Counted from the stretch's first letter, positions 41,714 through 45,030 are shown. The stretch is DNA of 64,000 bases from Rhizophagus irregularis (GCF_026210795.1 NC_089429.1:5518001-5582000); one strand, 5' to 3'. Program-made: numbers and translations. Notes: generated from the letters alone by a model not told the origin.

Positions 41714-44700
41714 CTATCCTATAGAGTCAAAGAGTTCCTGAATATTATTATCTGTTTTCAGCCTGTATGATGGAAGCTCTGGTGCACCTTTATTTCCAAA
41801 ACCAGTACTATTATATGGCCGGCGATTAATTCGGTATGAGTATTGCCTAACTTGTTGTCCTTTAGGCCCTATTCTTTTTTTATCACTTTCAATGTTATAC
41901 CCACACCAATTGCCAGTAATTGCATTAATTGTTTTTATAGCCGAATGAAGATCTGGTGTTTTCTTTGCACGAGACTTAAAACCAAAGAGTAATAAAGATT
42001 GGTTTCGAATTTCTATAAACTTTTCACAAGATCGCATAAATGATTCTGATGCAGTATCGCTAGAAAGAGTACGCTTGTCATCAATGCCAGTAAAGCCTAA
42101 TATTTGAAAAAGTTCTTATATAACTTCCCAATGCTTTGCTGAATAAGATTTACGCAAGTCTTCTGCCACTGATTTTTCCAGATTCTCTTTGGCTTTATAG
42201 CAGGCAATTTTCCATTGTATATTTTCCTCAGCTTTCAATCCCTTCATTGCATTCTCTTCATCATGACCTTGCCTTCGAAAATAAGACAACCGTAAGAAAT
42301 GCTTCCGAGCTTCAGGCGAACTAAAATTTTCAACGAATTTTCTATTGCAAATATTATTCCAATCCTTGATACTCATGTCTTTACAATAAAGATTCCGCAT
42401 ATAAAAACGTTTAAGTGTCATAGTATCTGCAATAGAGCGCTCTTGGTCGAATTTAAGGACTTCAGCTTCTTCAAGGCTAAGATTCTGGGAAGTAGCAACT
42501 GCATTAAAATCCGTTTCTTTAATAACTAATGCTTCAACTCTAACCTCATTACGGATTCTTTTACGATTTCCTATAACTCCTCGGCTTTCATCCATTTTTA
42601 TTAGTTGGAGAGAAGCGCCAGTACTGGCTATAAGACTACAAAGCTTCTCAATAAAGTATCTCGCAGAAAGGCGTTTCTGATGCTCAACTTCAATAAAAGT
42701 TATTACGGCAGGAGACTCGTCAACTTTATAAGAAATGCCATTATTATTCCATTCACGATGTCCCTTTATTGCTGTGGGCAAATTATTAGGCCGAGCACTT
42801 TCAAGTTCTGCTTGAATATTTTCATGACCTGGTGGGCGAAAAAGTTCGTTAGAATTTTTCTGATAGAATAAAGAAACAATACGACGGGGGGAATCACGAA
42901 TTCGGTAAAGCATTTGCGCAAGAGCTTCAACATGAACTGGTGTGGCAATATTTGTAATGGCTATAACTATATCAAAGTGGCCTATAATCTCAAAAGATAT
43001 ACCCGCTTCCACTGTATTTGTATAAGCCACACAGTCAAGCTTACTCCAAGCGACATTAATATCGGAAAAGTCTTTTTGTCTCTGTTTTCCATCCATATCT
43101 CCATAGTATGCACGGGCTCTAACAGGTGAATTATCAGGCTTAGATTACTTAGATGCTTTTTCTACTAACGTTCTAGCTATCACCGCTCCGGTAGATACAA
43201 ATGCCACACGTTTACCCTGCCTCAAAAGGTCATATCCTATTCGCATGGCTTCTGCTCCACTATTCGGATCATAAATAAATTCAACCGTCTCACCTATACG
43301 AGGCTGATACTTATTATCGACTACACGAATATTTTCACTACGATAAATCTGGAGGAAGGTTAGTGTTGAGATATTTGCGAAGGCATCCATGGCCAAAACA
43401 TGTCTCGCAGTTCTTAAGACATCACACATTGCGTTTTCAGATTCCTGTGCATTTGTACCGCTAGACATTTGGCGCATAATTGCATTAGCTTCATCGAGAA
43501 TAGCTACAAACAGACGGGCTGTGAATTCAACACGAAAGAGGCTCTCAACCTGTACTATGATAATATCCCACTCATTTATAGATAAGTCTCCTTGCATATT
43601 TTGGTAGTTGCAAATTCGGAAGCCAGATGCTTTTAACTCATTAAGTTTGGATTTTGATTCATTGCTAAGAAACTTTTGGTAAGAGATCCAGATATAGCAT
43701 GGTAAAGAAGAAATATCATGTACCTTATCTTTCAATGCCATAATAATCTCTCTTAATGCAATGGTTTTCCATGTCCCTGGGGAGAACGAATAAGTGTTGT
43801 TGTTTTCTCAATATCCAAGAAATTGGGATATACTTCTGGAGCATCCTTTAATTTTTCTACATTAATCATCATTTCTGATAATCCTACAAGAGGACGTGGA
43901 TTTGATATAGCATCACCTATTCTTTCGACTATTCCTCTCTTAGGTTTTGCAGAAACTTCGGTCACTTTTCCAAACGCTAATCCCTTATGATCTGGTTTAT
44001 AATTTTTCTGCCGATAACATTTGAGTACAAAACAGCCGTTACTTCGAAGAAAGCCATATAACTGATCTTTTTCGTGTTTGATATTGCAAATGGGACATTC
44101 TTCCAATGACCGAGCTTGAAAGTTAATAAATCCCTTTCTAATGTCGCCAACCTTAAGCCATCCATATTTTGTGGTAACCAAGCCAGCTCCCACGCTTAAG
44201 GTAGTTTTATCTTCGATGGGTTGGAATTCCTCTTTTTCTGGCTTCTCAGAGGAAAAGGTTTGGGGCCAGATTTCAGAATAATTGGATTTAGGCTAAACTA
44301 AATAATTTTCTAGCTCGCAATATCCTTCCTTGACAGAAGAAATCGCAGGTCTTTTAATTCTATCTTCCTTTGCCGATCCAAGGAGCCGGAGACTAAAGCG
44401 AGATTTATAAAGGTCAAAATCGATAAACTTTGAGTATGGTTTTCCAACCTTATCAGCGACTTTTTTTACAAAACCCTCTAGATCTCTATAGTCAATAAAA
44501 CGGGTATAAGGATACACGATATACCAACTGCATTTATTAGCATTAGACGAACTGGCTAAGGCAAAAGCGTCTAATATTATGAAATGATTTAAATTAGAGT
44601 TTATAATATCGGTGCAGGCAATTAAGATTCTGGATAATAAATCTTCGCGAGAAATTTTATATCCATCTAAGGAAGGGAGTTCGGGATTCATGGGATCAGA

Positions 44701-45030
44701 ATACTGCCTTGCGTCAATATCCAGAACAAGGCGAAGAGGCAGATTCCCATCAATACATTCGTGAGTATCGGGAAACCCATAAACTTCAGATGGATGATCA
44801 ACTACCGTAAAACCCTTTTCTGCTACCCGAATAATATATTTTGAATAAATCTCTTCAGGATGATAGGCTCCTAGAAGAGAGATATCATTTTTATTATTAG
44901 ACAAATATTGAAAGTATACATGATCATTATAGCCAGGCTCAAAATCAAAGTCCGCTAACCCTGAAAAGAGCCTGATTGCTTCGTTTATTGTTTTAGGGCT
45001 CGGCCCAGCATTTTTTTGCGCAAGAAGCAT
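41714..45030 (-). pseudogene. AEP (PrimPol-like) primase + Zn finger + UL9/origin-binding-protein-like SF2 helicase fusion, ~1105 codons
   Basis: AEP: LRLVLDID, KCSWYIVY (His position is Tyr), IDFDLY..RFSLRLLGSAK. Zn finger: CPICNIKH...C. Helicase: LIRSP.GTWKT (frameshift near 43775), IIIVQVESLFR, ILDEANAI, LAMDA, YTNTVEAGISF, QMLYRIR. Five ORFs are joined by in-frame stops at 44293, 43145 and 42116 and one frameshift. Confidence 0.88.

What the first reader, a model, noticed from the sequence alone, without database searches (positions are those of the whole stretch)
41714..45030. Five ORFs reconstruct one ~1105-codon primase-Zn finger-UL9-like helicase replicase
Seen: three in-frame stops and a single frameshift in Walker A split one long gene with AEP motifs and SF2 motifs I-VI of origin-binding-protein type. 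It is the last gene before the terminal repeats. Inference: it is the element's replication module, possibly replacing pPolB.
Basis: partly seen in the sequence, partly recalled or inferred. Interest (0 to 1): 0.72.

Follow-up and report, generated by a model that had tools for sequence, protein, structure and literature searches.

The report
Hairpin-ended DNA element in mycorrhizal fungi
The five pieces are one broken primase-helicase gene of a multicopy DNA element of arbuscular mycorrhizal fungi; the element also carries a gene predicted to be a hairpin-telomere resolvase and ends at a perfect 62-base palindrome, so it likely once replicated as a linear DNA with sealed hairpin ends, a design my literature searches did not find described in fungi.

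Summary
Observation confirmed. Window 45030-41714 (-) is one 1,105-codon gene broken by three stops and one frameshift in Walker A. Relatives carry AEP primase, zinc finger and UL9-type SF2 helicase in one chain. That fusion is already known from mimivirus R8, ASFV pF1055L and mriyaviruses. This copy is dead.

What is new lies beside it. ORF 37015-38118 (-) is open and best matches protelomerases (VIA-align top three: TelA, TelA, TelK; ESM Atlas: ResT/TelK twice), although Foldseek weakly prefers Cre. It lies about 1.2 kb from the replicase once a hAT insertion is removed, and head-to-head with it in two other loci. A perfect 62-bp palindrome plus phased boxes (46188-46400) lies 1.3 kb upstream of the replicase. 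A relative has a different perfect palindrome at the same place. The multicopy family stops there: one copy at the palindrome's outer edge with another flank, one near its axis.

Best reading (0.6): integrated relic of a linear, hairpin-ended replicon of Glomeromycota, N15/phaeovirus-like in its end chemistry. 'Maverick with pPolB replaced' is unproven: no pPolB, capsid or matching TIR is seen in the window.

The parts
41714..45030 (-). Pseudogene of a 1,105-aa AEP primase - Zn finger - UL9-type SF2 helicase; stops at 44295, 43147, 42118; frameshift near 43779
44290..44900 (-). AEP domain: motif I DxD (44721, 44715), motif II SxH (His is Tyr here, 44523), motif III D (44421), LRLLGSAK
   Evidence: (invariant columns in 23 relatives)
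44010..44100 (-). Zinc finger CxxC...H...C
   Evidence: C and C invariant, C and H nearly invariant in alignment A5
42890..43800 (-). SF2 helicase: Walker A (subfamily form GTWKT), Walker B DE (about 43495), motif V YTNTVEAGIS, motif VI QMLYRIR (about 42916)
41717..42890 (-). C-terminal region; DNA binding inferred from its position in UL9, homology to the UL9 DNA-binding domain not tested
   Evidence: conserved in the family; inference
45031..45880 (.). Conserved non-coding region upstream of the replicase (mostly 70-90% identity in relatives)
46188..46328 (.). 4.4 copies of a 32-bp unit, each with a CTAG/TTAG-centred 12-bp box that recurs in both palindrome arms
46339..46400 (.). Perfect 62-bp palindrome with AT-rich centre (axis 46369/46370); element end; candidate telomere-resolution site or unfolded hairpin
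37015..38118 (-). Open 367-aa ORF, tyrosine-recombinase superfamily, best match protelomerase (telomere resolvase)
38587..38895 (+). Small Cys/His-rich ORF between resolvase and replicase
   Evidence: no Pfam hit
38975..41683 (+). Second, similar Cys-rich ORF, split by the hAT insertion
39102..41494 (.). Nested hAT-type transposon (16-bp TIR, 8-bp target duplication, DUF659 ORF, 81-bp internal array); later insertion, not part of the element
26657..36325 (.). Nested low-GC transposon with a Plavaka element inside; splits an F-box/LRR gene
92..2140 (+). Degraded integrase-like frame (by eye only), homing/HNH-type endonuclease and split A32-like ATPase; same GC level as the replicase region, membership of the same element unproven

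Best explanation
This is a broken primase-helicase gene at the end of a multicopy Glomeromycota element that likely replicated as a linear DNA with covalently closed hairpin ends. Shown: the AEP-Zn finger-SF2 fusion, its decay in this copy, its physical linkage to the 367-aa recombinase-family gene in three loci, and the family's end at a perfect palindrome with phased boxes. Predicted: the 367-aa protein is a protelomerase. Inferred: (1) the replicase binds boxes near the end, unwinds the AT-rich DNA, lays primers with its AEP domain, and a host polymerase extends them (no polymerase gene was seen); (2) copying round a hairpin gives a palindromic junction, which the protelomerase would cut near the axis and reseal into two hairpins; (3) chromosomal copies would arise when host repair opens a hairpin and joins the end, leaving a half or a whole palindrome at the boundary. 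This copy is a relic.
For: Fusion and motifs. Resolvase identity: VIA-align over 48,161 chains ranks TelA first and second (Z 9.3 and 9.2, rmsd 5.4-5.5, 248 aligned), TelK third (Z 8.4, rmsd 5.2, 242 aligned) and the ResT catalytic domain fifth (Z 6.8, rmsd 4.0, 129 aligned); XerH and a staphylococcal integrase score 5.3. ESM Atlas puts PF16684 clusters first among named families for the window protein (0.96; 166 shared features) and for the catalytic part of a homolog (0.95; 166 and 172), above integrases at 0.92-0.93. Catalytic positions R, K, R, H/Q, Y are kept in 77, 78, 77, 62 and 67 of 91 homologs (gaps counted as misses); His is not among the seven commonest states (86 of 91) at the HxxR position, as in TelN (K) and ResT (Y). 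Linkage: about 1.2 kb from the replicase after removing the hAT; head-to-head with it in L013 and L017. Palindrome: arm 31 against 10-12 in 5 shuffled windows, z -12.4; N15 telRL is 56 bp. L006, the only one of 54 loci of this upstream type that reaches far enough, has an unrelated perfect 36-bp palindrome 1.24 kb upstream with inward boxes at 21-22 bp spacing. Ends: related contigs cover 41480-46430 and fall to one unvaried contig beyond; a second copy shares the palindrome to 46400 and continues in another flank; a diverged copy stops at 46374, five bases past the axis.
Against: The resolvase model is mediocre (pLDDT 68, pTM 0.46, strands missing). Foldseek on it gives no E below 0.001 and ranks Cre above TelA, and integrases above an EhV-86 resolvase. 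Z 9.3 is only modestly above the tool's stated background (7-8; up to 13-14 for helical models). No Pfam hit to PF16684 in 42 members; profile-profile tests against TelN, ResT, an 8-sequence protelomerase alignment, Cre and lambda Int were all insignificant. The window protein and 33 of 91 homologs have Gln at the His position. His-to-Tyr spacing of 11 matches ResT and VP58.5 but not TelN (9), so it discriminates little. Positional conservation of the palindrome rests on one other locus; L013 and L017 hold no palindrome in the DNA available. The three ends are three insertions, probably shared by related strains, not twelve observations; palindromes also break at their axis without any telomere role. 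No strand-switch joint at the axis was listed, but only assembled contigs could be laid. The other end was not found.
Confidence: 0.6

Rival explanations
1. The palindrome is a herpes-oriS-like origin (inverted boxes around an AT-rich spacer) bound by the UL9-like replicase, and the 367-aa protein is a Cre/Crypton-like recombinase that excises and integrates a circular element.
For: Inverted 12-bp boxes flank a 24-bp AT-only centre and recur in phase, as Boxes 1 and 2 of oriS do around an AT-rich spacer (PMC12543377, passages). Foldseek ranks Cre first. An earlier unchecked note reads such palindromes as origins.
Against: The wide structural search and the Atlas prefer protelomerases. No HxxR His. 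An origin need not be perfectly symmetric nor sit at the element boundary, and one copy ends near the axis. An origin role for the boxes is compatible with the best explanation.
Confidence: 0.2
2. The gene is the replication module of a Maverick/Polinton-like virus in which pPolB was replaced; the element runs from left of the window to 46400 and integrates by an rve integrase.
For: A32-like ATPase (Pfam E 1.5e-4 and 5.8e-3, below cut-off), endonuclease and an integrase-like frame at 92-2140. GC is 0.363-0.380 in all four non-nested segments from 1 to 46400 against 0.28-0.29 in nested transposons and 0.25 beyond. Swaps of pPolB for primase-helicases, and fungal Maverick-type A32 genes, are reported (10.64898/2026.06.19.733378, passages); Mavericks are expanded in Glomerales (PMC11952901, passages).
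Against: No pPolB, capsid or TIR partner in the window. The integrase has no Pfam hit. About 22 kb of Crinkler, F-box/LRR and unknown genes separate the modules; no second locus links them. It does not explain the protelomerase-like gene or the palindrome. A hybrid (virus with hairpin ends) is possible and falls under the best explanation.
Confidence: 0.14
3. The genes are fragments of an endogenised giant virus that were multiplied passively by host duplications.
For: The same fusion occurs in giant-virus contigs (34 of 46 viral loci); giant-virus insertions are reported in Rhizophagus (PMC7017919, passages; PMC10640383, listing only).
Against: Glomeromycota sequences form their own clade (support 1.0), apart from all viral loci sampled; no resolvase homolog in the 46 viral loci; sharp shared end with different flanks; conserved upstream non-coding DNA.
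Confidence: 0.06

Closest known systems
AEP-SF2 (UL9-like) primase-helicases: mimivirus R8, ASFV pF1055L, Ostreid herpesvirus 1, mriyavirus SF2_hel (10.1101/2024.02.29.582850, passages)
   Same: Domain order and all catalytic motifs.
   Different: Separate clade whose nearest sampled relatives are three environmental proteins; Walker A reads GTWKT in 35 of 50 homologs where the motif was found; multicopy in fungal chromosomes beside a protelomerase-like gene; no HUH endonuclease or capsid seen.
Phage N15 TelN/telRL and Borrelia ResT hairpin telomeres
   Same: Resolvase of matching fold and catalytic pattern; palindrome of similar size (62 vs 56 bp); primase-helicase replicase nearby (N15 RepA: recalled, no call).
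   Different: Eukaryotic host; replicase is AEP plus SF2; palindrome is perfect and sits at the boundary of integrated copies; 6-12% identity to solved protelomerases.
Phaeovirus endogenous elements of Ectocarpus (PMC13236599, passages and section 8)
   Same: Integrated eukaryotic element with a telomere resolvase and a telRL-like inverted repeat.
   Different: Phaeoviruses are giant viruses with their own polymerase, capsid and a separate integrase, and their site is internal; here it is terminal and no separate recombinase is linked.
HSV-1 UL9 and oriS (PMC12543377, passages)
   Same: SF2 helicase family; inverted boxes around an AT-rich centre plus further boxes.
   Different: [quoted passage not shown]
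Maverick/Polinton elements and transpovirons; Glomhopper CryptonA (PMC13465315)
   Same: Mobile DNA of these fungi; A32-like gene in the window; helicase-bearing linear plasmid as a life style.
   Different: No pPolB, capsid or TIR pair seen; the resolvase family has no DUF3504 hit; the Glomhopper text holds none of protelomerase, telomere, helicase, primase, palindrome.

Membership tests
AEP-SF2 UL9-like primase-helicase (R8/pF1055L type) | AEP motifs I-III at the N-terminus | tested here: met
   Invariant D, S/H, D in 23 relatives; profile hits PrimPol and D5. His is Tyr in this copy.
AEP-SF2 UL9-like primase-helicase (R8/pF1055L type) | SF2 helicase of Herpes_ori_bp type with motifs I-VI | tested here: met
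   (23 of 23 members)
AEP-SF2 UL9-like primase-helicase (R8/pF1055L type) | Both domains in one polypeptide in intact relatives | tested here: met
   24 of 120 proteins, 4 of 54 loci; 34 of 46 viral loci
Protelomerase (PF16684) | Tyrosine-recombinase-type catalytic set R-K-R-H-Y without the HxxR His | tested here: met
   Gln replaces His in 33 of 91, including the window copy
Protelomerase (PF16684) | Protelomerase fold as best structural match | tested here: inconclusive
   VIA-align top three are TelA, TelA, TelK; Foldseek ranks Cre first, all E above 0.01; model pLDDT 68
Protelomerase (PF16684) | Sequence-profile match to the family | tested here: not met
   0 of 42 members hit PF16684; hhalign insignificant. 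Atlas features do match. Filed as 'works like', not as a PF16684 member.
Protelomerase (PF16684) | Cognate palindromic site on the same replicon | tested here: inconclusive
   Palindrome present in the window and L006; that it is the enzyme's target is inferred
Protelomerase (PF16684) | Hairpin-forming activity; hairpin-ended molecules in vivo | not testable with these tools
   Only assembled contigs could be laid
Maverick/Polinton | pPolB or substitute replicase, rve integrase, A32 ATPase and capsid genes between TIRs | tested here: inconclusive
   A32-like and integrase-like genes at 92-2140; no pPolB, capsid or TIR partner in the window; left end outside it; no genome held
Mriyaviricetes | HUH endonuclease, double jelly-roll capsid, VLTF genes | tested here: inconclusive
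   No such Pfam hit in 45 ORFs, but the element is degraded and cut by the window
Herpes oriS-type origin | Boxes bound by the helicase's C-terminal domain; AT-rich spacer melted | not testable with these tools
   Anatomy resembles it; binding untested

The most novel reading that the evidence does not exclude
Arbuscular mycorrhizal fungi across the Glomeromycota host a family of linear, hairpin-ended DNA plasmids or viruses with a eukaryote-adapted protelomerase and a primase-UL9 replicase; many integrated relics remain, some strains may still hold free copies, and the element may ferry Crinkler and F-box cargo.
Probability: 0.5. Interest if true: 0.86.

Novelty: new variant of a known kind. 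Interest (0 to 1): 0.74.

Why it matters
The replicase alone is a new member of a known viral family. Its setting would add a kind of mobile DNA to fungi: hairpin telomeres made by a protelomerase are known from bacteria, phages and brown-algal giant viruses, and nine literature searches listed no fungal case; subscription journals and supplements were not seen. It would explain two multicopy 'hypothetical protein' families of AM fungi, name part of their unclassified repeats, and give a direct test (enzyme plus 62-bp site). A native autonomous replicon would interest those seeking vectors for these hard-to-transform symbionts (own knowledge), and a nucleus-adapted protelomerase would interest makers of closed linear DNA.

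Tried and rejected
No whole genome held, so copy number, flanks and the left end could not be mapped. Viral-contig scans with the window protein, A3 and A4 found no relative; genome-contig scans with P0240 and A2 found none. PDB sequence search with the resolvase profile gave only weak Noc hits; phage tblastn with P0145 gave nothing. hhalign against protelomerases and against Cre and lambda Int was uninformative either way. A second fold on a 90-sequence resolvase alignment was accepted but had not finished; the replicase was not folded. No RNA holder listed: no evidence on expression. Summed contig depth is no copy number and was used only to see where related contigs stop; the twofold depth inside the palindrome fits the second copy and was not read as a dimer junction. 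Contig breaks at 46368/46371 are expected assembly behaviour at a palindrome. The resolvase side could not be examined with reads. PF16684 could not be sought in whole viral records. Iyer et al. 2005 could not be opened. Rejected: chance ORF pieces, separate primase and helicase genes, an alternative genetic code (stops face different residues and relatives are open), introns. A TAGTA in the arms recalling Borrelia box 3 (from memory) is absent from L006 and was set aside. The tree is FastTree, midpoint-rooted, 74 of 75 sequences, without named references or a clade test, so no donor is claimed.

Full report
Setting. The window is fungal: Crinkler, Sel1, F-box/LRR and Plavaka ORFs, and every named homolog of the gene is from Glomeromycota (137 proteins at E 0.001 or better among 7,996 scored, 120 listed). 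No whole genome is held.

Observation. The five minus-strand ORFs exist. Stops lie at 44295, 43147 and 42118, and the frame shifts once inside Walker A near 43779; the span equals 1,105 residues. Homologs carry ordinary residues at each stop and run through Walker A. The helicase piece hits Herpes_ori_bp. A profile search of 1.84 billion representatives gave 2,227 hits, among them full-length proteins outside the fungal set. A profile of 21 of these plus two fungal proteins hits UL9 (E 8e-51), human PrimPol (3e-13) and poxvirus D5 AEP (1e-9), with invariant AEP, zinc, Walker and motif VI residues. Primase and helicase motifs are in one chain in 24 of 120 proteins and 4 of 54 short loci, and in 34 of 46 viral loci. 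This copy also has Tyr for the motif II His (His in 39 of 40 locus motifs and 29 of 33 protein motifs). It is a pseudogene. The fusion is known: mimivirus R8, ASFV pF1055L, Ostreid herpesvirus 1 and mriyaviruses (10.1101/2024.02.29.582850, passages). In a helicase tree (74 of 75 sequences) the fungal proteins form one clade (1.0), sister to three environmental proteins (0.999) and apart from all viral loci sampled.

The end of the element. Upstream lie about 850 bp of non-coding DNA shared with relatives, then 4.4 copies of a 32-bp unit and a perfect 62-bp palindrome at 46339-46400. The longest arm in five shuffled windows is 10-12, against 31; the longest in 46 viral loci is 15. A 12-bp box recurs in the array and in both arms. 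L006, the only locus of this upstream type that reaches far enough, has a 36-bp perfect palindrome of unrelated sequence 1.24 kb upstream, followed inward by boxes 21-22 bp apart: same design, other letters. Contigs of four runs show many variants from 41480 to about 46430 and a single unvaried contig beyond. A second copy shares the palindrome to 46400 and goes on in another flank; a diverged copy stops at 46374, five bases past the axis. These are three insertions, likely shared among related strains. GC is 0.363-0.380 in non-nested DNA up to 46400 and 0.25 beyond. No inverted partner of this end is in the window.

The partner gene. ORF 37015-38118 is open for 367 codons and has no Pfam name. 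A hAT insertion with a 16-bp TIR and an 8-bp duplication (39102-41494) separates it from the replicase; without it the gap is about 1.2 kb and holds two small Cys-rich ORFs. Homologs lie head-to-head with the replicase in L013 and L017, 2 of 54 loci. The family spans Rhizophagus, Gigaspora, Geosiphon, Paraglomus, Ambispora, Diversispora and others. It keeps R, K, R, H/Q and Y and lacks the HxxR His. The Atlas ranks ResT/TelK clusters first among named families twice. On a model of pLDDT 68, VIA-align ranks TelA, TelA and TelK first among 48,161 chains, over about 245 residues, with ResT fifth and XerH at Z 5.3. Against this, Foldseek ranks Cre ahead of TelA with no significant E-value, and sequence profiles decide nothing. 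I put protelomerase at about 0.7.

Mechanism. Inferred by analogy with N15 and phaeoviruses (PMC13236599, passages and section 8): the replicase opens and primes near the boxes, a host polymerase copies the DNA round the hairpin, the resolvase cuts the palindromic junction and reseals two hairpins, and host repair occasionally opens a hairpin and integrates the molecule, leaving half or whole palindromes. The boxes may serve the replicase, as in oriS (PMC12543377, passages), the resolvase, or both. None of these steps was observed.

A32-like, endonuclease and integrase-like genes at 92-2140 and the even GC level allow one large element of more than 34 kb, and Mavericks are reported in these fungi (passages). 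But no pPolB, capsid, TIR or second linking locus was seen, so replacement of pPolB stays unproven; I give linkage of that module about 0.4. An earlier unchecked note (e1-9898344) saw a primase-helicase element with palindromes in another fungal genome, called it small and read the repeats as an origin; the lines shown mention no resolvase. It is a lead, not independent support.

Literature. Nine searches listed no paper on a fungal protelomerase or on this element. The Glomhopper paper holds none of six terms sought. PMC7017919 and PMC5294986 (passages) treat giant-virus genes. No supplements were read; repeat libraries in them may list this family under another name.

Verdict. Real. The replicase is a new member of a known family. 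The unit of replicase, protelomerase-like gene and terminal palindrome is a new variant of the hairpin-telomere replicon, at 0.6. Interest 0.74.

Noticed in passing
window 43763-43777 (-) and homologs: Walker A reads GTWKT, Trp in place of the Gly before Lys, in 35 of 50 homologs where the motif was found, across Rhizophagus, Gigaspora and others; a subfamily trait, not a lesion. Effect on ATPase activity unknown.
   Followed up: partly
window 92-2140: Degraded integrase-like frame (no Pfam hit), endonuclease (PHROG HNH/homing hits) and split A32-like ATPase: a Maverick-like module running off the window's left edge.
   Followed up: partly
window 15804-20683, 22071-26660, 36092-36868: Two Crinkler-domain genes, three F-box/LRR genes and retropepsin-like frames (by eye) inside the even-GC island; possible cargo.
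   Followed up: no
window 26657-36325: Nested transposon with inverted ends and internal arrays, holding a Plavaka element (TIRs 28029-28222 and 33877-34082); it splits an F-box gene.
   Followed up: partly
window 39102-41494, 48445-51656, 60806-61399: The hAT ORF shares sequence with the BED-finger starts of two Sel1-repeat genes and a third BED ORF: Sel1 genes with a transposase-like N-terminus.
   Followed up: no
window 4402-5634: Short element with 40-bp inverted ends around a 72-bp tandem array.
   Followed up: no
window 10322-10401 and 62487-62567: 81-bp inverted match (88%) 52 kb apart; unexplained.
   Followed up: no
L013 2102-2359 and L017 813-1046: A small coiled-coil-like ORF of similar sequence lies between resolvase and replicase in both loci, with a shared non-coding motif upstream of the resolvase.
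   Followed up: no
P0240, P0244: Nearest non-fungal relatives are labelled as from a Patescibacteria MAG (contigs of 15 and 39 kb); probably mis-binned mobile DNA worth checking for a resolvase.
   Followed up: partly
L071-L089: Several viral contigs of about 350-380 kb carry multiple paralogs of the AEP-SF2 gene.
   Followed up: no
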